DNA of 21,368 nucleotides from Centroscyllium fabricii (lineage: Eukaryota), in NCBI GenBank assembly GCA_051313645.2. It is one part of the record JBNRSN020000027.1 of this genome. One strand, given 5' to 3'. Under the pieces are notes generated by a model that worked only from the letters and a program-made list of their open reading frames with translations, had not been told where the DNA came from and searched no databases. Positions 1-13,448 of the stretch are shown piece by piece. Within the stretch, counting starts at the first letter, position 1. Each line of letters opens with the position of its first letter. A program made the position numbers and the translations under genes.

Positions 1-1298
1 CCCAATCTACTTTTGGACTCCCCAATGTAGAGGAGACCGCATCGTGAGCAGTGAATACAGTAAACTAAAGCGCTGTTTCACCTGGAAGGGGTGTTTGCGG
101 CCCTGGAGAGTGGGAAGGGGGGAGGTGAAAGGGCAGGTGTTGCATCTCCTGTGCTTGCATGGGAAGGTGCCAGGCAAAAGGGAAGGGCTGATTGAGGAGT
201 GGACCAGGGTGTCGCGGAGGGAGCGGTCCCTTCAGAATGCTGAAAGGGGAGGGGAAGATGCATTTGGTGGTGGGATCACGTTGGAGGTGGTGGAAATGGC
301 GCAGGATGATCCGTTGAATATGTAGGCTGGTGGGGTGAAAGTTGAGGCAAGGGGAACTCTGTCGTGGTTCTGGGAGGGAGGAAAAGGGGTGAGAGCAGAA
401 GTGCGGGAAATGGAACGGACCTGGTCGAGGGCCATGTCAACCACAGTAGAGGGGAATCCTCGGTTGAGGAAAAAGGAAGGCATGTCGGAAGCACTGGTGT
501 GGAAGGTGGCATCGTCAGAACAGATGCGGAGGAGATTGAGAAACTGGGAGAATGGAATAGAGTCCTTACAGGAAGCGGGGTGGGAGGAAGTGTAGTCCAG
601 GTAGCTGTGGGAGTCGGTGGGCTTGTAATGAATGTTTGTCAATAACCTATCCCCAGAGATGGAGGCAGAGAAATCAAGGAAGGGAAGGGAAGTGTCGGAG
701 ATGGACCATGTGAAGGTGAGGGAAGGGTGGACATTGGAAGTAAAGTGAATGAACTTATCTACTTCAGGGCGAGAGCAGGAAATGGCACTGATACAATCAT
801 CAATGTACCGGAAAGCAGAGATGAGGGAGGGGACCAGAGTAGGACTGGAACAAAGAATGTTCCACATATCCCATGAAATGGCAGGCATAGCTAGGGCCCA
901 TGCAGGTTCCCATAGCAACACCTTTAATTTGGAGGTAGTGAGTGGAGTCAGAGGTGATGTTGTACAATGTGAGAACAAGTTCAGTCAGGTGTAGGAGAGT
1001 GGTGGTGGTTGGGAACTGGTTGGGCTTCTGTTCAAGGAAGAAGCAAAACACCCTCAGACCATCCTGGTGGGGGATGGAGGTGTAGAGGGATTGGCTGTCC
1101 ATAGTGAAAAGGAGATGGTTTGGTCCAGGAAACTGGAAACTGTTAAAGTGACAGAGGGCATCAGAAGAGCCACAAATGTAGGTGGGAATAGACTGGACAA
1201 GGGGAGAACAAATAGAGTCGAGATAGGAAGAGATAAGTTCTGTGGGGCAAGAACAGACTAAAACAATGAGCCTACCAGAGCAGTCCTGTTTGTGGATC
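1..1298 (-). mobile_element. Penelope-like retroelement (PLE), degraded RT + GIY-YIG endonuclease, 5'-truncated; continues beyond the left edge
   Basis: Minus-strand frames give PLE RT motifs: MDSQSLYTSIPH and YLQIKGVAMGTCMGPSYA (ORF 800-1102), FRYIDD, LPFLD and IHYKPTDSHSYLDYTSSHP (ORF 232-978). The reverse complement of 1-67 reads LVYCIHCSRCGLLYIGESKSRLG, the GIY-YIG motif. Frameshifts separate the segments. Confidence 0.93.
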
Positions 1299-1325
1299 CC
1301 ACCACCAAATGCATCTTCCCCTCAC

Positions 1326-1567
1326 ATAGAAACATAGAAACTAGGAGCAGGAGTAGGCCATTCGGCCCTTCGAGCCTGCTCCGCCATTCAATGAGATCAT
1401 GGCTGATCATCCAAACCCAGCACCCTATCGCTGCCTTGTCCCCATATCCCTCGATCCCTATCAAGCCTGCACCGACACATATCCCAACCTAACCCCGTAA
1501 CCCCACATATTCAATCTCACTAACACTAAGGGTCAATTTATCCTGGCCAATCAACCTAACCCGCACA
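1326..1567 (-). mobile_element. 5'-truncated V-SINE (HE1-like) inserted in the Penelope arm
   Basis: Reverse complement of the 3' half of the SINEs at 6807/9631, including the (TTTCTATG)n tail. Flanked by TCAC at 1322-1325 and 1568-1571 (candidate 4-bp TSD); removal restores PLE continuity. Confidence 0.92.
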
Positions 1568-2190
1568 TCACCTCCCCTTTCAGCATTCCGAAGGGACTGC
1601 TCCCTCCGTGACACCCTGGTTCACTCCTCAATCACCCCTAAAAGCCCTTCCTGTTCACCCGGCAACTTCCCGTGCAAGCGCAAGAGATGCAACACCTGCC
1701 TTCCCACTCTCCAGGGCCCCAAACACTCCTTCCAGGTGAAACAGCGATTTACTTGTACTTCTTGCAATTTAGTATACTATATTCGCTGCTCACAATGCAT
1801 TCTCCTGTACTTTGTGGAACACCTCCGTTCAGTCCGTAAGGGTAACCCTGAGCTTCCGGTCGTCTGTTACTTTAATTCTCTGCTTCACTCCCACTCTGAT
1901 CTCTCTGTCCTCAGCTCTTACATTGTTCCAATGAAGCTCAACATAAGCTCGAGGAATAGCACCTCATCTTTCGATTAGACACTTTACAGCCTTCCGGGCT
2001 CAACATTAAGTTCAACAATTTCAGACTATAATCCCTGCCCCCATTTTTCATGCTGTATGATTTTGCCATTCCCATTTGCAACATTTTATCTTTCTTGCCT
2101 CTTACCTAAGCACAGTGTGTTCCTTGAATTCCTTCCTCCCCTCCCTGTCTCTGCACCTGCTTAATATCTGTTACATCTCCAGCTTTTTCC

Positions 2191-2330: not shown

Positions 2331-2470
2331 GATTTTTATTAGGCTTGTACATCAAGGGATATGGATCAAAGGGGGGTAAATAAAGTGCTGTTACAAATCA
2401 GCCATGATCTAATTGACTGGAGGAACAGGCTTGTGGGGCTGAATGTCCTATTCCTGTTCCTACATTTCTA
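2331..2470 (+). mobile_element. Old, diverged CR1-type LINE 3'-end remnant
   Basis: ATCAAGGGATATGG...ATCAGCCATGATCTAATTGA...GGCTGAATGTCCTATTCCTGTTCCTA resembles the CR1 ends at 5570-5890 and 8955-9085. Confidence 0.75.
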
Positions 2471-2569
2471 AGTGCTAGAAATTTATATTCCCCCCCCCCA
2501 CCCCGCCATACAGCTTATAATCCTGAGCAATTTCTCTTTATACTTTATCTTAGTTCACGGGATGTTTTT

Positions 2570-5500
2570 TTGGAACAATATGTCGAGGAACCAACCAGAG
2601 ACCAGGCCATCCTTGACTGGGTATTATGTAACGAGAAAGGAGTAATTACCAATCTTGTGGTAAGGGGCCCCTTGGGTCTGAGTGATCATAACATGATAGA
2701 ATTCTTCATTAGGATGGAGAGTGAGGTAGTGGAATCTGAGACTAGGGTCCTGAATCTAAACAAGGGAAACTATGATGGTATGAGGTGCGAACTAGGTAGG
2801 ATTGACTGGGGGATGTCACTCAAAGGGTTGACGGTGGATCGGCAATGGCAAATATTCAAAGGCTACATGGATGAGCTACAGAGGTTGTTCATCCCAGTGT
2901 GGCACAAGAATAAAACAAAAAGGGTAACGCAACCGAGGCTGACGAGAGAAATTAGGGATAGCATAAGATTAAAGGAAAGGGCATATAAACTGGCCAAAAA
3001 AAGCGGTAACCCTGATGATTGGGAACAGTTTAGGATTCAACAAAGGAGGACAAAAGGATTAGTTAAGAAGGGGAAAATAGAATATGAAAGTAAGCTTACA
3101 AGGAATATAAAAACTGACTGTAAGAACTTTTATAGATATGTAAAGAGGAAAAGATTGATGAAATCAAGTGTAGGTCCCTTATGCCCTAGTTTCACTGGAG
3201 GCTAAGTATGCCAAGTATCCCAAGAATCGTCAAGAATCGAAATCTTGGCGATTCTTGGTGATTCTGCATGAAATGCGAAAAATACTTGGTTGAATCTTGG
3301 CGATTCTTGGTGAATTCTTGGCGATTCTGGACAAGGTTACGAATCTATCACGAATTATTTTACGAATGAGGTACGAATCACTCACGAATCCACCACGAAT
3401 TGCAAGAATTAATTAAGAATCCACTACGAACTCCACGAATTAGTTACGAATTCTACGAATTAGCTACGAATTATCTACGAATTGCATTCGTAGTGCATTC
3501 GTAGACATTCGTGGACAATCGTGGTGCATTCGTGGTGCATTCGTGGTGCATTCTTGATTTTGAAAAAATCAAGAATGCCCAAGAATAGTCAAGAATGCAC
3601 CACGAATCCACTACGAATCAGTTACGAACGGTAAGAAAGGGTCACGAACGGTAAGAATGGGTCACGAATTGTTTACGAATCTATCACGAATTGGAAAATC
3701 GGGAACCCTCCTACGAAATTTTTTGACAAACAAAAACTTTCTTTAAAACTAAAAGAACTCCCGCGAACTACCGCGAACTCTACGATTCCGCTACGAATCC
3801 ACTACGAATCCACTACGAATCTACTACGAATTGCAAGAATGACCCACGAATCGGCCAAATTTCAAAATCGGCACGATTCGGGAATTCGTAGCCTCCAGTG
3901 AAACTAGGGCATTACAGTCAGAAGCAGGGGAAGTGATAATGGGGAACAAAGAAATGGTTGATCAATTAAATGCATATTTTGGCTCTGTCTTTACAAAGGA
4001 GGACACTAGTAACCTCCCAGAGATATTGGGGAACATAAGGTTTGATGAAGGGGAGGAACTGAAGGATATCCGTATTTGCAGGGAAATGGTGTTAGGGAAA
4101 TTGAAGGGATTGAGGGCCGATAAATCCCCGGGGCCTGATGGTCTGCATCCTAGGGTACTTAGGGAGGTGGCCCTGGAAATAGTAGATGCATTACTGATTA
4201 TCTTCCAGCAATCGATGGAATCTGGAACTGTACCCATGGATTGGAGGGTGGCTAATGTTACCCCACTATTCAAGAAGGGTGGTAGGGAGAAAGCAGGAAA
4301 TTACAGACCAGTAAGCCTGACATCAGTAGTGGGAAAATGCTGGAGTCCATAATAAAGGATGTAATCACTGAGCACTTGAAAATCAACGACAGGATTGGAC
4401 AAAGTCAACATGGATTTACAAAAGGTAAATCGTGCTTGACTAATCTGCTGGAATTTTTTGAGGATGTAACTGGGAAAATTGATCAGGGAGAACCAGTAGA
4501 TGTGGTATACTTGGACTTTCAGAAGGCGTTCGACAAGGTCCCGCACAAGAGACTAGCATATAAAGTTAAGGCACATGGGATTGGGGGCAAGGTATTGACT
4601 TGGATTGAGAATTGGTTGGCAGACAGAAAGCAGAGAGTGGGAGTAAATGGGTCTTTTTCTGGGTGGCGGGCAGTGACTAGTGGGGTACCGCAGGGCTCAG
4701 TCCTGGGACACCAGCTATTCACAATATACATTAATGATTTAGAAAAGGGAACTAAATGTAATGTCTCCAAGTTTGCAGATGACACAAAGCTGGGAGGGCG
4801 TGTGTGCTGCGAGAAGGATACCAGGATGCTCCAGGATGATTTGGACAGGTTGGGCGAGTGGGCCGAGACATGGCAGATGCAGTATAATGTGGATAAATGC
4901 AAGGTTATCCACTTTGGGGGAAAAAATAGAAATGCCGACTATTATCTGAATGGCAATAGATTGGGAGAAAGGGAAGTACAACGAGACCTGGGTGTCCTGG
5001 TGCACCGGTCGCTAAGGGTGAGCATGCAGGTGCAGCTGGCGGTTAAGAAGGCAAATGGTATGTTGGCCTTCATAGAGAGAGGTTTTGAGTACAGGAATAG
5101 AGAGGTCTTGCTGCAGTTGTACAGGGCCTTGGTGAGACCAAACCTTGAGTACTGTGTGCAGTTTTGGTCTCCTTATCTAAGGAAGGATGTTCTTGCCATG
5201 GAGGGAGTGCAGAGGAGATTCACCAGGCTGATACCTGGGATGGCAGGATTGATGTATGAGGAGAGACTGGGTAGACTGGGTTTGTACTCTCTGGAGTTTA
5301 GAAGATTGAGAGGGGATCTCATCGAAACGTATAAAATTCTAACTGGTCTGGACAGACTTGATGCAGGAAGAATGTTCCCGATGGTAGGAGAGTCCAGAAC
5401 CAGGGGCCATAGTCTAAGGATAAGGGGTGACTCATTTAGGACAGAGATGAGGAGGAATTTCTTCACCCAGAGGGTGGTGGGGCTGTGGAATTTGCTGCCC

Positions 5501-5611
5501 CAGAGAGCTGTGGAAGCTACTACTTTGAATAATTTTAAAACAGAGATAGACAGTTTCCTGGAAGTAAAGGGAATTAGGGGTTATGGTGAGCCGGCAGGTA
5601 AGTGGACGTGA
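2570..5611 (+). pseudogene. CR1 ORF2 (endonuclease C-terminus + reverse transcriptase), broken by one insertion and one frameshift
   Basis: Motifs: EPTRDQAILDWVL and SDHNMIEF (endonuclease); KSPGPDGLHPRVL, NYRPVSLTS, YLDFQKAFDKVPH, SGVPQGSVLG and KFADDTKL (RT). The TTA codons at 3179 and 3912 are in frame with ORFs 2570 and 3933, so excising the insert gives VGPLQSEAGE. There is an apparent 1-nt loss near 4332-4337. Confidence 0.93.
3182..3911. mobile_element. Non-autonomous DNA transposon (MITE-like), probable PIF/Harbinger superfamily, 730 bp
   Basis: Perfect 23-bp TIRs TGCCCTAGTTTCACTGGAGGCTA (3182-3204; inverse at 3889-3911). TTA is duplicated at 3179-3181 and 3912-3914, and 3-bp TWA TSDs typify PIF/Harbinger. 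No ORF is listed inside it; the interior is arrays of A(C/A)GAA(T/C). Confidence 0.92.
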
Positions 5612-6806: not shown

Positions 6807-7218
6807 GGCAAAACAGGTGGCACAGTGGTTAGCACTGTTGCCTTACAGCACTGGAGACCCGGGTTCAAATCCAACCTCGGGTACTATCTGTGTGGAGTAT
6901 GCACATTCTCCCCGTGTCTGCGTAGGTTTCCTCCGGGTGCTCCGGTTTCCTCCCACAGTCCAAAGATGTGCGGGTTAGGTTGATTGGACAGGATAAATTG
7001 ACCCTTAGTGTTAGGGGGATTAAATATGTGGAATTATGGGGATAGCATGGGATATGTGTCAGTGCAGGTTCGATCGGGATCGAGTTATATGGGGACAAGG
7101 CAGGGAAAGGGTACTGGGTTTGGATGATCAGCCATGATCTCATTGAATGGCAGAGCAGGTTCGAAGGGCCGAATGGCCTACTCCTGCTCCTATCTTCTAT
7201 GTTTCTATGTTTCTATGT
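6807..7218 (+). mobile_element. Full-length tRNA-derived V-SINE (HE1-like)
   Basis: Pol III A box TGGCACAGTGG (6818-6828) and B box GGTTCAAATCC (6862-6872). V-domain CACATTCTCCCCGTGTCTGCGT...CCGGGTGCTCCGGTTTCCTCCCAC, followed by a CR1-like 3' end and a (TTTCTATG)n tail. Confidence 0.94.
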
Positions 7219-7699
7219 CTTGCAATCCTTTTTCCTGACCTTCGTGACTGTGAAAATTGTTGCCCTCCAGGGGGCAAGGGTGATGAAAAGGAAGGCAATG
7301 TATCATTTAAAAACACGAACAAAATCTGTCAATTAGGAATCAACAATAACAAAGTAGTTAACAATGAAACAAGTAGCAAGGAAAACTGAAATGAATTAAA
7401 TCACTTAAAATATATTTTAATAATATTTTCAGTTGTCCTATTTCATCAGTAACCTTTGGAAACAAGTACAAAGTAAAGTGTAAAACTTAATAAAATGGGT
7501 GCGATGCCTATGGAAATGTGATATGAACCGGCAGCTCACCCAAATAATATTAGTGAGGCTTGAGGCCCAATTTCAAGCTGGCCATGGCCTCCTGGTTGGG
7601 GCATTCGCTCCTTGTGCAGTGCTCATTTTGGACTTGAAAATAAACTTATTGGAATTTCCACCACTTAACTGTCAGAATGTCCCAGTGCCATTCTGTGCA

Positions 7700-7771
7700 A
7701 GATAGGCTAAACGAGTTGGGACTCTAAACTTTAGAGAAGCGTAGACTTGGGGTGATCTGATTGAGGTTTAT
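7700..7771 (+). mobile_element. Old CR1 ORF2 remnant hosting the Rex insertion (resumes ~8386-8401; duplicated at ~10524-10595)
   Basis: Reads approximately RLNELGL*TLEKRRL/GDLIEVY, then MKAID after the Rex fragment; compare RLGRLGLYSLEFRRLRGDLIETYKILTGLD in the intact CR1. Confidence 0.6.
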
Positions 7772-8383
7772 AATTCAATTCAATTCAATTCAATTCAATT
7801 CAAGTTTTATTGTCATTGCAGAGTACTAGTACAATACAACGAGACGAAGACTCGACTCTCCCGAGAGTAGTGCAAATAAAATAAATAAATTACATGCAAA
7901 ATTGCATACAGTAAAGTACATTATCAGGCATGCAGGTACCGGAGTTTCTTTTTAGAGTTCAGGAGGCTGACAGCCCTGGGGAAGACGCTGTTCTGAAATC
8001 TAGTTGTGCGGGTGCAAATTGCTCTGTAGCGTCTCCCGGAGGGCAGGGGGGCGAACAGACTGTGGCTGGGTTGTGTGGGGTCTTTAATAATGTTCATAGA
8101 CCTCCGTAAGCAGCGTTTGAGGTAGATGCTTTCCATTGACGGTAGCTGTGTACCGCTAATTCGTTGGGCAGTTTTTACTACCCGCTGCAGCGTTTTCCGG
8201 TCCGAGATAGTGCAATTACCATAACAGACAGTGATGCAGCTTGTCAGTATGCTTTCTATTGTGCAGCGGTAGAAGTTGGAGAGGATGCCGGATGACAGCC
8301 TGGCTTTCTTCAGCTTCCTTAGGAAGTACAGGCGCTGTTGGGCCTTCTTAACCAGAGAGGAGGTGTTTAGTGACCAGGAGAGA
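7772..8383 (-). mobile_element. Rex1/Babar-clade LINE, 3' fragment with (GAATT)6 tail
   Basis: Minus strand reads LSWSLNTSSLVKKAQQRLYFLRKLKK...FYRCTIESILTSCITV...LQRVVKTAQRI...IIKDPTQPSHSLFAPLPSGRRYRAI...RFQNS, a typical Rex1/Babar C-terminus. The pentanucleotide tail is at 7772-7801. Confidence 0.9.
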
Positions 8384-8414
8384 CGATGAAGGCAATAGAT
8401 TGTGCTCCAGTTGA

Positions 8415-9089
8415 CAGCAATTAATCAAAAAGGCAAATGGAATGTTGGCCTTAATCGCAAGGGGTCGGAGTAGAAAAGCAGGGAAGTCCTGCTACAACTG
8501 TACAGGGTATTGGTGAGACCACACCTTGAGTACTGCGTACAGTTTTGGTCTCCTTATTTGAGGAAGGATATACTTGCATTGGAGGCAGTTCAGAGACGAT
8601 TCACTCGGTTAATTCCAGAGATGAGGGGTTTGACTTATGAAGAAAGGCTGAGCAGGTTGGATCTATACTCATTGGAATTTAGAAGAATGAGAGGGGATCT
8701 TATTAAAACATGTAAGATACTGAGGGGGCTCGACAAGGTAGATGCTGAGAGTATGCTTCCCCTTGTGGGGAAATCTAGAACTCGGGGGCATAGTTTCAGA
8801 ATAAAGGATCGCCCTTTTAGAACTGAGATGAGTAAAAAAAAATCTTCTCTCGGAGGTTCTTGAATCTGTGGAATTCTCTGCCCCAGAGAGCCGTGGAGGC
8901 TGGGTCATTAAATACATTTAAGGTGGAGATAGACAGATTTTTGCAAGATAAGGGAGTGAAGGGTTATGGGGAGCGGGCAGCGAAGTGGCTTTGAAACCAA
9001 GACCAGCCATGATCTTATTGAATGTCAGAGCAGGCTCGAGGGGCCAAGTGTTCTATTCCTGCTCCTATTTCTTATGGTCTTGTGATCTT
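8415..9089 (+). mobile_element. CR1 LINE 3' fragment
   Basis: KKANGMLA...VRPHLEYCVQFWSPYLRKDILALEAVQRRFTRLIP...SRTRGHS, followed by a CR1 3' UTR and a degenerate TTCTTATG tail; contains stops and a frameshift. Confidence 0.93.
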
Positions 9090-9213
9090 ATCACATGGTT
9101 CTGAATGGGTTGGAGAGTGTATATTGTGATACACAAGGTATCACAATTGTGTGGCACAGGCTGAATGGACCAAAGGGTCTTTAGCTGTCCATTATTGTCC
9201 GTATGTTGGTAAC
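9090..9213 (+). mobile_element. Probable 3' terminus of an older CR1 subfamily (duplicated at ~11913-12036)
   Basis: Begins ATCACATGGTTCTGAATGGGTTGGAGAGT, resembling ATCACATGGGTTTGGGTGGGGTGGAGAGT at 5748-5776, then continues into a different LINE-like end (GGCTGAATGGACCAAAGGGTCTTTAGCTGTCC). Confidence 0.5.
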
Positions 9214-9630: not shown

Positions 9631-10042
9631 GGCAAAACAGGTGGCACAGTGGTTAGCACTGTTGCCTTACAGCACTGGAGACCCAGGTTCAAATCCAACC
9701 TCGGGTACTATCTGTGTGGAGTTTGCACATTCTCCCCGTGTCTGCGTGGGTTTCCTCCGGGTGCTCCGGTTTCCTCCCACAGTCCAAAGATGTGCGGGTT
9801 AGGTTGATTGGCCAGGATAAATTGACCCTTAGTGTTAGGGGGATTAAATATGTGGAATTATGGGGATAGCGTGGGATATGTGTCAGTGCAGGCTCGATCG
9901 GGATCGAGTTATATGGGGACAAGGCAGGGACAGGGTACTGGGTTTGGATGATCAGCCATGATCTCATTGAATGGCGGAGCAGGCTCGAAGGGCCGAATGG
10001 CCTACTCCTGCTCCTATCTTCTATGTTTCTATGTTTCTATGT
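9631..10042 (+). mobile_element. Full-length V-SINE (HE1-like), duplicate copy
   Basis: Same structure as 6807-7218, with 9 substitutions by manual count. Confidence 0.94.
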
Positions 10043-10595
10043 CTTGCAATCCTTTTTCCTGACCTTCGTGACTGTGAAAATTGTTGCCCTCCAGGGGGCA
10101 AGGGTGATGAAAAGGAAGGCAATGTATCATTTAAAAACACGAACAAAATCTGTCAATTAGGAATCAACAATAACAAAGTAGTTAACAATGAAACAAGTAG
10201 CAAGGAAAACAGAAATGAATTAAATCACTTAAAATATATTTTAATAATATTTTCAGTTGTCCTATTTCATCAGTAACCTTTGGAAACCAGTACAAAGTAA
10301 AGTGTAAAACTTAATAAAATGGGTGCGATGCCTATGGAAATGTGATATGAACCGGCAGCTCACCCAAATAATATTAGTGAGGCTTGAGGCCCAATTTCAA
10401 GCTGGCCATGGCCTCCTGGTTGGGGCATTCGCTCCTTGTGCAGTGCTCATTTTGGGCTTGAAAATAAACTTATTGGAATTTCCACCACTTAACTGTCAGA
10501 ATGTCCCAGTGCCATTCTGTGCAAGATAGGCTAAACGAGTTGGGACTCTAAACTTTAGAGAAGCGTAGACTTGGGGTGATCTGATTGAGGTTTAT

Positions 10596-11206
10596 AATTC
10601 AATTCAATTCAATTCAATTCAATTCAAGTTTTATTGTCATTGCAGAGTACTAGTACAATACAACGAGACGAAGACTCGACTCTCCCGAGAGTAGTGCAAA
10701 TAAAATAAATAAATTACATGCAAATTGCATACAGTAAAGTACATTATCAGGCATGCAGGTACCGGAGTTTCTTTTTAGAGTTCAGGAGGCTGACAGCCCT
10801 GGGGAAGACGCTGTTCTGAAATCTAGTCGTGCGGGTGCAAATTGCTCTGTAGTGTCTCCCGGAGGGCAGGGGGGCGAACAGACTGTGGCTGGGTTGTGTG
10901 GGGTCTTTAATAATGTTCATAGACCTCCGTAAGCAGCGTTTGAGGTAGATGCTTTCCATTGACGGTAGCTGTGTACCGCTAATTCGTTGGGCAGTTTTGA
11001 CTACCCGCTGCAGGGTTTTCCGGTCCGAGATAGTGCAATTACCATAACAGACAGTGATGCAGCTTGTCAGTATGCTTTCTATTGTGCAGCGGTAGAAGTT
11101 GGAGAGGATGCCGGATGACAGCCTGGCTTTCTTCAGCTTCCTTAGGAAGTACAGGCGCTGTTGGGCCTTCTTAACCAGAGAGGAGGTGTTTAGTGACCAG
11201 GAGAGA
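10596..11206 (-). mobile_element. Rex1/Babar-clade LINE 3' fragment, duplicate copy
   Basis: Near-identical to 7772-8383 (ORF 10747-10959); (AATTC)6 at 10596-10625. Confidence 0.9.
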
Positions 11207-11237
11207 CGATGAAGGCAATAGATTGTGCTCCAGTTGA

Positions 11238-11912
11238 CAGCAATTAATCAAAAAGGCAAATGGAATGTTGGCCTTAATCGCAAGGGGTCGGAGTAGAAAA
11301 GCAGGGAAGTCCTGCTACAACTGTACAGGGTATTGTTGAGACCACACCTTGAGTACTGCATACAGTTTTGGTCTCCTTATTTAAGGAAGGATATACTTGC
11401 ATTGGAGGCAGTTCAGAGACGATTCACTCGGTTAATTCCAGAGATGAGGGGTTTGACTTATGAAGAAAGGCTGAGCAGGTTGGATCTATACTCATTGGAA
11501 TTGAGGAGAATGAGAGGGGATCTTATTAAAACATGTAAGATACTGAGGGGGCTCGACAAGGTAGATGCTGAGAGTATGCTTCCCCTTGTGGGGAAATCTA
11601 GAACTCGGGGGCATAGTTTCAGAATAAAGGGTTGCCCTTTTAGAACTGAGATGAGTAAAAAAAAATCTTCTCTCGGAGGGTCTTGAATCTGTGGAATTCT
11701 CTGCCCCAGAGAGCCGTGGAGGCTGGGTCATTAAATACATTTAAGGTGGAGATAGACAGATTTTTGCAAGATAAGGGAGTGAAGGGTTATGGGGAGCGGG
11801 CAGCGAAGTGGCTTTGAAACCAAGACCAGCCATGATCTTATTGAATGTCAGAGCAGGCTCGAGGGGCCAAGTGTTCTATTCCTGCTCCTATTTCTTATGG
11901 TCTTGTGATCTT
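11238..11912 (+). mobile_element. CR1 LINE 3' fragment, duplicate copy
   Basis: Near-identical to 8415-9089 (ORF 11333-11686). Confidence 0.93.
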
Positions 11913-13448
11913 ATCACATGGTTCTGAATGGGTTGGAGAGTGTATATTGTGATACACAAGGTATCACAATTGTGTGGCACAGGCTGAATGGACCAAAGGG
12001 CCTTTAGCTGTCCATTATTGTCCGTATGTTGGTAACTACTGTATGGTCAATAATCCAAGCATTAATGACTACCTCACTTGAGTCTAATGAATATCTTGGA
12101 GCTGGAGATGCATTACACATGAAGATTTTTTGTATGAATGACAGCAAGAGTAGCCATTCATAGAATGTGCCAGGTCTTGCTGCTTATAAACCCAGCCCCT
12201 CCTCGCTCTCACCCCTCCCACACTGAAGATTCTTGAGAACTTACAAGCACCAAGAGTCAGAGAAACCATTATTAAGTACTAGTGCATCTCCTTTGAAGGT
12301 AGCTGTAATTTATTTTGCATTAAAACATCAAAACAAAGTAAAGTATGAACCTTTGAACTCTATCTGAGATAACTTTGATAATAGAAACAATGCCATTAAC
12401 TATATGCAATGGTTTGCTATTGCTGCAGCTATAGTACATCACCTGCACTGACTTAACTATTGAAATAACGTTAGTATATCAGGGCAACTGGTTTATCTGA
12501 CTGCAGTGTGTGAGGAAAATACGATTCATTTAGGTATTCATTTTTATTTCTGATTAGTATGTTAAATAAACTATCAGACCTATGTAGGATTAATTGCAAT
12601 ATACTGAATAGGCTAATTTTTGTGTTTATTTGCCAAATAGTTATTTACTTCAAACAGAATGTTTAATAAGTATGCTGAGAAATGTGTGCAATAGAATCGT
12701 CTCATAAATACTATCAGCAAAGCAGACATTCCTTTGAAAGTAAGTTTGACAGCGGTCTGCCACAGTCAGAATCAAAGGTTTATGACATTTGTAGAAAACC
12801 CTGTAGATTCCAGCTCACTTTCTGTCTCTGTCTCTTTGCTTATGTTATCCTTCTCCACATTTCCTGGAGCTCATTTGGTGGTCTTGTTTACTGACAAATC
12901 TGGCCTTATGATACATTTTCTTTGAGATATGTCTTCCTAAATCTTAAGTGAACTTTGCCTTTGAGGGAGGTTTTAATGTCTTCCTTTGGCAATCAGTAGA
13001 TAAGTAACTCAGTGCTTGGGATACTTTTAACCACTTACATTAATCTGCAGTGGCAGTTTTGGGTCTCTTGGCAGGGGGCCTTTCAAGACGAAGTTAAGTT
13101 TTGGAAGCTGCCCATCAGATCTTATTAGAAAATCATGTTCTCCATAGCTGATGCTTGTGGAGCAGATGTAACTCTTGCAAGCAGACATGGGTGAACAAAT
13201 GGTGAGGGCACATAACCACTTTACTGGTTAAATCTCAAATTTCCTTTATGCATCATGTAACAAATACATACCTTTTGCCTTTTGCGCTTTCCATTGTCAT
13301 AAATAATATTCTGTCAACGACACCTGTATTGCCAGCGATTGCCAACATTGCTGTACTATTGTTCACAGGTGTCATCAGCAGTAACACTATACACAACATG
13401 AAAGGTAAACTATCCAACTACATCTTTGGTTCAACTGGCCTATTCATA

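What the first reader, a model, noticed from the sequence alone, without database searches (positions are those of the whole stretch)
3182..3911. Harbinger-type MITE whose interior is a helically phased array of ACGAAT motifs
Seen: between perfect 23-bp TIRs and a TTA TSD lie roughly 50-60 copies (by eye) of A(C/A)GAA(T/C). They are spaced 9-11 bp apart, mostly 11, with variable linkers (e.g. CCACTACGAAT CCACTACGAAT CTACTACGAAT). Blocks switch orientation: ~14 forward at 3336-3482, 7 reverse at 3486-3556, then forward again. The motif is conserved while linkers vary, unlike slippage-generated minisatellites, and CpGs are largely retained. Known: Harbinger transposition uses a separate Myb/SANT-like protein that binds subterminal repeats. 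Inference: this element is a near-continuous binding scaffold with about one site per helical turn. It could out-compete autonomous elements for transposition proteins or act as a portable methylation-sensitive array, and it may be an uncatalogued young family.
Basis: partly seen in the sequence, partly recalled or inferred. Interest (0 to 1): 0.7.

Follow-up and report, generated by a model that had tools for sequence, protein, structure and literature searches.

The report
Harbinger transposon burst with mismatched flanks
This is a very young, gutted copy of a still-intact Harbinger DNA transposon family whose repeat arrays are simply the parent's end regions, and about a third of the copies sampled carry different three-letter flanks on their two sides, likely because the element brings the flanking letters of its old site along when it jumps.

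Summary
The element is real: 730 bp, perfect 23-bp TIRs, TTA flanks, 44 strict A(C/A)GAA(T/C) motifs (shuffles: 3.3), period 10.5-10.6 bp. It is an internal-deletion derivative of a 4.2-kb autonomous PIF/Harbinger (DDE_Tnp_4 transposase plus MADF protein; both ORFs open in 22 of 22 full-length copies read). The genome holds about 9,100 elements, about 750 full-length; 40 of 40 scored hits are 100% identical. The arrays are the parent's two subterminal regions joined, with the same motif count (45 vs 45), so a MITE-specific super-scaffold is not supported. The surprise lies in the flanks: 32 of 98 unselected elements, and 9 of 40 identical copies, have non-matching 3-bp 'TSDs' (mostly TTA|TAA or TAA|TTA). 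Flanks are collinear with empty-site paralogs; either side, or both, can carry a triplet foreign to the target (TAT|TCA at a TAT site; TGA|TGA at a TTA site), and the foreign sequence stops within the triplet. Best reading: the excised element keeps 3-nt donor overhangs that are ligated at integration and fixed by repair or replication, as proposed for piggyBac. The overhang is known for mPing; its routine fixation in natural insertions was not found in my searches.

The parts
3182..3911 (+). 730-bp non-autonomous PIF/Harbinger element (Tourist-like MITE)
   Evidence: 40 of 40 scored genome hits 100% identical over 730 bp
3179..3181 (+). left target triplet TTA
3912..3914 (+). right target triplet TTA (this copy has matching flanks)
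3182..3204 (+). left 23-bp TIR
   Evidence: 9104 forward and 9107 reverse exact matches in the genome
3889..3911 (-). right 23-bp TIR
3182..3472 (+). left arm = bases 1-291 of the autonomous element L039:3187-7405(-), 97.9% identical
3483..3911 (+). right arm = bases 3779-4219 of the autonomous element, 94.3% identical; the deletion junction lies at about 3473-3482
3339..3482 (+). forward run of 14 motifs, mean spacing 10.6 bp
3486..3555 (-). reverse run of 6 strict motifs (inner block of the parent's right subterminal region)
3571..3851 (+). forward runs of 11 and 6 motifs with one isolated motif between
2417..5611 (+). host LINE (reverse-transcriptase ORF2 pieces; CR1-type by recalled resemblance) interrupted by the MITE
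   Evidence: ORFs either side; RVT_1 E=6e-27 for 4286-5611

Best explanation
The element is a deletion derivative of an intact two-gene PIF/Harbinger transposon, its motif arrays are the parent's subterminal regions and likely bind the parent's MADF protein, and the mismatched flanks of a third of sampled family members likely arise because the excised element keeps 3-nt overhangs from its donor site that are ligated into the new site. Steps. [quoted passage not shown] (2) Inferred from PIF/Harbinger biology: MADF protein coats the 10.5-bp-spaced sites and recruits the transposase. (3) Inferred, with mPing precedent: excision cuts the flanking triplets in a staggered way, leaving a 3-nt 5' overhang of donor sequence on each element end. 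(4) Inferred: after strand transfer into a TWA (rarely other) target, each overhang either is removed and the gap filled from the target, or anneals into the 3-nt gap with a mismatch and is ligated. (5) Inferred: repair or replication fixes donor or target letters at each end separately. Shown outcome: target/target, donor-type/target, target/donor-type and donor-type/donor-type flanks all occur.
For: Family. Mismatch rate: 32 of 98 two-ended elements in the first 96.3 Mb of contig C1 (15 TTA|TAA, 13 TAA|TTA, 4 other; 95% CI 24-43%; 12 unpaired ends left out); 9 of 40 copies identical to the window element, so not age-related mutation; 5 of 22 full-length copies. Genome-wide end triplets read from outside: TAA 9008, TTA 8177, TSA 691, VWA 176, TWB 78, other 81 of 18211: the middle base swaps by thousands while single changes at the outer positions are about 1%. 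Empty-site paralogs with an exact 3-nt gap: of 30 elements with 3 or more paralogs, 25 had a clear middle base; 14 target/target, 5 foreign-left, 3 foreign-right, 3 both foreign; 5 ambiguous. Examples: L151 TAT|TCA at TAT (7 of 7), L073 TGA|TTA at TTA (11 of 11), L091 TAA|TGA at TAA (10 of 10), L090 TGA|TGA at TTA (10 of 10), L070 TTA|TAA at middle A (29 of 29). At the 14 foreign ends, positions 4-9 agree with the paralogs (0.80-0.97), position 2 never does. Among elements picked for an odd outer base, the other flank is a canonical TWA in 12 of 16 and 17 of 22, differing by two letters in 7 and 7, including L158 TAT|TTA and L104 TTA|TAC, both identical to the window element. Literature: 3-nt 5' overhang model (PMC4561436); donor TTA/TAA carried to Cas9 cuts (PMC11254759); ligation route proposed for piggyBat (10.1101/015289).
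Against: No donor-daughter pair was traced, so 'foreign = donor' is inferred. Left ends of the young AGT clade are 1650 TAA to 1530 TTA, the same 52% as all ends, so no clade-wide inheritance of a flank is seen (expected to average out over many jumps, but it is a failed positive prediction); the opposite biases in 40 identical MITEs (20 TAA|TAA, 11 TTA|TTA) and 22 full-length copies (4 and 12) are small samples. In yeast, mPing with TCA/TCA flanks gave 45 of 46 insertions read as TTA/TAA (PMC4561436), so carry-over seems rare there. Empty sites are paralogous repeats, not the true pre-insertion alleles, and the set of 25 is enriched for odd flanks, so 14 of 50 is not a rate. MADF binding to the motif is untested; the Pfam MADF score (22.1 bits) only just reaches the cut-off (22). 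Three TWB-picked elements have two different non-canonical flanks.
Confidence: 0.76

Rival explanations
1. Mismatched flanks come from ectopic recombination or gene conversion between near-identical copies after ordinary insertion with perfect TSDs.
For: About 9,100 similar copies, many identical, are good recombination substrates; a conversion tract could end at the T-W-A microhomology.
Against: Left and right flanks of mismatched elements are collinear in empty-site paralogs with an exact 3-nt gap, which excludes crossovers there; foreign sequence does not extend beyond the triplet; both-foreign cases would need two tracts each ending exactly at base 3; the rate is similar in short (21 of 64) and long (11 of 34) elements.
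Confidence: 0.08
2. The element travels as a circle or heteroduplex-joined intermediate with one 3-nt coupling sequence (as recalled for Tn916-type elements), so each insertion gets one target and one donor triplet.
For: Gives the same one-sided outcomes (8 of 25).
Against: Matched non-canonical pairs that equal the target (L092 TCA|TCA, L128 TAT|TAT, L120 ATA|ATA) and both-foreign pairs (L016, L090, L180) are common (27 complementary TSA pairs among the first 100 listed TSA ends); the enzyme is a DDE_Tnp_4 transposase. It survives only with extra repair steps.
Confidence: 0.07
3. Mismatches are post-insertion point mutations, error-prone gap filling, or assembly errors.
For: Some odd flanks (ATA, small shifts) may be local indels; older copies have mutated.
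Against: 9 of 40 copies with zero changes over 730 bp are mismatched; outer positions change in about 1% of ends while the middle swaps in about 30% of elements; two-letter changes convert non-canonical targets to TWA or TCA.
Confidence: 0.04
4. One reading: the MITE evolved a dense, methylation-sensitive, helically phased scaffold that out-competes autonomous elements.
For: Period 10.5-10.6 bp in every arm examined, also in diverged copies; motif positions vary less than linkers across copies (44 of 264 vs 45 of 152 sites, p=0.003); CpG o/e 1.62 against 0.42 in the parent's interior; CpG transitions are 22 of 106 singleton but 4 of 76 shared substitutions.
Against: Autonomous copies carry the same arrays and motif count; the linker excess is as strong in singleton as in shared substitutions, which fits unit slippage or conversion as well as selection; gap-order permutation not significant; 14 of 44 motifs lack the CpG; full-length copies are themselves numerous (about 756). 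Small size alone raises mobility in this superfamily (PMC10288884 abstract passage).
Confidence: 0.1

Closest known systems
PIF/Harbinger superfamily and Tourist-like MITEs (mPing from Ping; Harbinger3_DR; C. inopinata Harbinger-1M_cIno)
   Same: Two genes (DDE_Tnp_4 and MADF), TIRs, TWA target, MITE as deletion derivative of the autonomous element (mPing: PMC9921582 passage; C. inopinata preprint passages), extended target preference (C at -1 and -3).
   Different: About 45 motifs at 10.5-bp spacing over some 700 bp of ends; no shared internal motif was found between mPing and mPong. A third of copies lack a true duplication; none of the passages read reports this for natural insertions.
mPing excision and TATSI integration (Gilbert 2015 PMC4561436; Liu 2024 PMC11254759)
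   Same: Staggered cleavage of the TSD giving 3-nt overhangs; donor TTA/TAA delivered to a new site.
   Different: There the donor triplet was seen at blunt Cas9 cuts joined by NHEJ, and free yeast insertions from TCA donors read 45 of 46 TWA; here donor-type triplets replace target letters in natural insertions at scale.
piggyBac / piggyBat (TTAA overhang, integration by ligation)
   Same: Donor-derived 5' overhangs that can anneal to the target gap (PMC7351741; 10.1101/015289). Mutations at non-canonical sites are named in the title of Li et al. 2013 (title only).
   Different: Different transposase family, 4-nt invariant palindromic target that hides the route; the degenerate middle base of TWA makes it visible here. 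No hairpin step is shown for this element.

Membership tests
PIF/Harbinger | Autonomous partner encodes a DDE_Tnp_4 transposase | tested here: met
   L039:5738-7039(-), 433 aa, E=4.2e-28, 98.4 bits; 433/437-aa frame open in 22 of 22 full-length copies (L039; 21 more)
PIF/Harbinger | Second ORF with Myb/SANT-like (MADF) domain | tested here: met
   L039:4119-5171(+), MADF_DNA_bdg E=2e-4, 22.1 bits at cut-off 22; opposite strand to the transposase; 347-350-aa frame open in the same 22 copies
PIF/Harbinger | Terminal inverted repeats shared by autonomous and non-autonomous copies | tested here: met
   same 23-bp TIR
PIF/Harbinger | 3-bp TWA target, one triplet at the empty site | tested here: met
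   17185 of 18211 ends are TTA or TAA; empty-site paralogs show a 3-nt gap
PIF/Harbinger | Identical 3-bp duplication on both sides | tested here: inconclusive
   Met for the window copy and 66 of 98 unselected elements; not met for 32 of 98. Read as a variant of end repair, not as non-membership
Tourist-like MITE | Short, non-coding, high-copy, homogeneous in length | tested here: met
   730 bp; 64 of 98 elements under 800 bp; 40 of 40 scored hits identical
PIF/Harbinger | Myb-like protein binds subterminal motifs | not testable with these tools
   needs EMSA or SELEX
piggyBac-like ligation route (works like, not a member) | Donor-derived overhang fixed at the new site | tested here: inconclusive
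   Outcome pattern fits; no donor-daughter pair or intermediate observed
Already curated Dfam/Repbase family | Match to a named consensus | not testable with these tools

The most novel reading that the evidence does not exclude
In this vertebrate germline, PIF/Harbinger integration routinely finishes by ligating donor-carried 3-nt overhangs instead of copying the target, so the 'target site duplication' is often not a duplication: perhaps half of all ends are donor-derived, each jump can rewrite up to three target bases, and rare flank triplets (TGA, TCA) act as heritable tags from parent to daughter copy. The family, with hundreds of intact autonomous copies, would be a natural active vertebrate Harbinger in which this can be measured.
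Probability: 0.6. Interest if true: 0.74.

Novelty: new variant of a known kind. Interest (0 to 1): 0.62.

Why it matters
Whether gaps at a transposon's new site are closed by fill-in or by ligation of donor overhangs is hidden in piggyBac (invariant TTAA) and was left open there (10.1101/015289, passages); the degenerate TWA target exposes it across thousands of natural events. It bears on Harbinger/mPing genome-engineering tools (junction fidelity; mismatched flanks impair precise re-excision in yeast, PMC4561436), on annotation and dating methods that demand identical TSDs (they would drop or misdate about a third of these copies), and it points to an apparently active vertebrate Harbinger with about 750 full-length copies. 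The motif array itself is an ordinary-kind subterminal repeat region, unusually long and regular, and a good substrate for MADF binding tests.

Tried and rejected
A genome-wide joint count of both flanks in one pattern could not be run, so the joint rate rests on 98 elements of one contig region. A size effect seen in the first 43 elements vanished in 98 (Fisher p=1.0). Clade-wide flank inheritance was not seen. Phase compensation beyond the spacing distribution was not significant. No RNA holder listed among public runs, which says nothing on expression. Contigs of four coded runs cover the family; X1 and X7 share deletion joints with each other; contigs cannot rank or date anything and I draw no transfer or host claim. 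A true empty allele for a mismatched copy was not obtained (one search gave nothing). No solved structure matches the transposase at E 0.01. Earlier scan findings: none by words or sequence; one unrelated. Literature searches that found no report of mismatched TSDs in natural Harbinger insertions; none on helical periodicity in MITE subterminal repeats. The library lacks most subscription papers; Sinzelle 2008, Li 2013 and Mitra 2008 were not held, so what I say of them is from titles or citing passages. Supplements of PMC4561436 and PMC11254759 were not opened and may hold two-sided insertion data.

Full report
Observation. There are 44 strict motifs (34 forward, 10 reverse), against 3.3 in shuffles (maximum 10 of 1000); 66 with one mismatch. 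Spacing is mostly 11, with 9 and 10 mixed in; the best-fitting period is 10.54 bp for forward motifs and 10.4-10.7 in both arms of eleven other copies, including the most diverged.

The family. A DNA search of the own genome (7.2 Gb) returned 919 candidates, 40 scored, all 40 identical over 730 bp. The exact TIR occurs 9104 times forward and 9107 reverse, so about 9,100 elements. Size classes are about 0.73, 1.4-1.5, 1.75-1.9, 2.55 and 4.2-4.8 kb. L039:3187-7405(-), 4219 bp, encodes a 433-aa DDE_Tnp_4 transposase (E=4e-28) and, on the other strand, a MADF-domain frame (E=2e-4). A 26-base probe from the MADF gene, a part missing from all 23 mid-size derivatives mapped, matches 756 times. Both frames are open in L039 and in all 21 further full-length copies fetched. 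The window MITE is the parent's bases 1-291 joined to about 3779-4219.

The array. Because the MITE is two parent ends joined, its 'interior array' is the parent's subterminal repeat regions, and the forward-to-reverse switch at 3483-3486 is the deletion junction. Motif counts are the same in short (mean 44.8, n=125) and full-length elements (45.3, n=22). Across copies, motif positions vary less than linkers (44 of 264 vs 45 of 152 sites, p=0.003), but the excess is no smaller among singleton substitutions than among shared ones, and length variants step by 10-11 bp, so unit slippage or conversion contributes. Shuffling gap order does not lower the phase coherence significantly (p 0.12-0.79). 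CpG is enriched in the array (1.62) but not in the parent's interior (0.42), and CpG transitions are 22 of 106 singleton against 4 of 76 shared substitutions: a hint that CpG-bearing motifs matter to copies that spread, offset by 14 of 44 motifs lacking CpG. That Myb-like ORF1 proteins bind element ends is from passages of PMC2836001 and the C. inopinata preprint; binding here is inferred.

The unexpected result. Testing the TSDs showed that many copies have different triplets on the two sides. Among 40 copies identical to the window element: 20 TAA|TAA, 11 TTA|TTA, 4 TTA|TAA, 4 TAA|TTA, 1 TGA|TAA. Among all 98 two-ended elements in the first 96.3 Mb of C1, paired from listed coordinates with 12 unpaired ends left out: 66 match, 32 do not, with no size effect. 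Genome-wide, ends read TAA 9008, TTA 8177, TSA 691, VWA 176, TWB 78, other 81. In the first 100 listed TSA ends I counted by hand 27 complementary pairs and 46 singles; in the 18 such elements resolved in loci, 8 match and 10 have a TWA on the other side.

Which side is the target? For elements inside repeats, left and right flanks were searched separately against all fetched DNA. Thirty elements had 3 or more empty-site paralogs with a 3-nt gap; 25 had a clear middle base: 14 target on both sides, 5 foreign left, 3 foreign right, 3 foreign on both. L151 reads TAT|TCA where 7 of 7 paralogs read TAT; L073 TGA|TTA at TTA (11 of 11); L091 TAA|TGA at TAA (10 of 10); L090 TGA|TGA at TTA (10 of 10); L067 and L070 sit in the same position of one repeat, TAA|TAA and TTA|TAA. 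At the 14 foreign ends, bases 4-9 from the TIR agree with paralogs at 0.80-0.97, so the foreign part ends within the triplet. When one flank has an odd first or third base, the other is usually a canonical TWA, often two letters away (12 of 16 and 17 of 22), which implies all three positions can be replaced. This set was enriched for odd flanks and uses paralogs, not true alleles.

Mechanism. Gilbert et al. 2015 (PMC4561436; passages and part 3 of 5 of the text read) propose that mPing is excised by staggered cleavage of its TSDs with 3-nt 5' overhangs, and report that TCA-flanked donors gave 45 of 46 insertions read as TTA/TAA. Liu et al. 2024 (PMC11254759; passages) see donor TTA/TAA delivered to Cas9 cuts and attribute it to three-nucleotide overhangs. 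For piggyBac and piggyBat the donor overhang is established and ligation at the new site is proposed, with fill-in not excluded (PMC7351741, 10.1101/015289; passages). Putting these together: each element end arrives with a donor triplet; after strand transfer it either is trimmed and replaced from the target, or anneals with a mismatch, is ligated, and is fixed one way or the other. Since donor and target differ only about half the time, a 33% mismatch rate implies (inference) that donor letters are fixed at roughly four to five ends in ten. Against: no donor-daughter pair was traced, no clade-wide flank bias, and the yeast result points to rare carry-over in that system.

Novelty and verdict. 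The element is a member of PIF/Harbinger by transposase, MADF partner, TIR and TWA target; whether the family is already named could not be checked. The mismatched flanks are shown; their origin from donor overhangs is inferred at about 0.75. I found no report of this for natural Harbinger insertions, within a library that lacks most subscription papers and with supplements unread. PMC9921582, PMC10288884, PMC4786924 and PMC8151067 were seen as passages only. Rated a new variant of a known kind, interest 0.62.

Noticed in passing
L013:1501-2963, L015:768-2230, L039:2453-7405, L102:793-2256, L023:1339-2808: Elements often land in a sibling's flanking triplet (head-to-tail neighbours sharing one TWA) or inside a sibling; 3 of the first 30 identical copies.
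   Followed up: partly
L181, L182, L183 (C1 45.38, 64.56, 79.52 Mb): A 4.74-4.78-kb class of full-length copies carries about 540 extra bases at parent position 3345, with both long frames still open.
   Followed up: no
genome-wide: Ends read TAA more often than TTA (9008 vs 8177), although matched TSDs give one of each; this would fit unequal fixation of A:A and T:T mismatches. The 98-element sample (13 TAA|TTA, 15 TTA|TAA) does not show it.
   Followed up: partly
L037:3293-4022, L044:991-1710, L107:1571-2291: Older subfamily, 84-88% identical, with variant TIR bases in L037 and L044; two of these three also have mismatched flanks.
   Followed up: partly
window ~6865-9091 and ~9689-11914: Apparent 2.82-kb tandem duplication of mixed repeat fragments (same microsatellites and near-identical frames 2823-2824 bp apart).
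   Followed up: no
window 232-1978: Frames resembling reverse transcriptase and GIY-YIG pieces of Penelope-like retroelements (recalled resemblance, not scanned).
   Followed up: no
L039:2200-8400 laid on coded runs X1, X7, X10, X11: Near-identical pieces of the family occur in runs labelled as several organisms; X1 and X7 share deletion joints. Relationship to this genome unknown.
   Followed up: no
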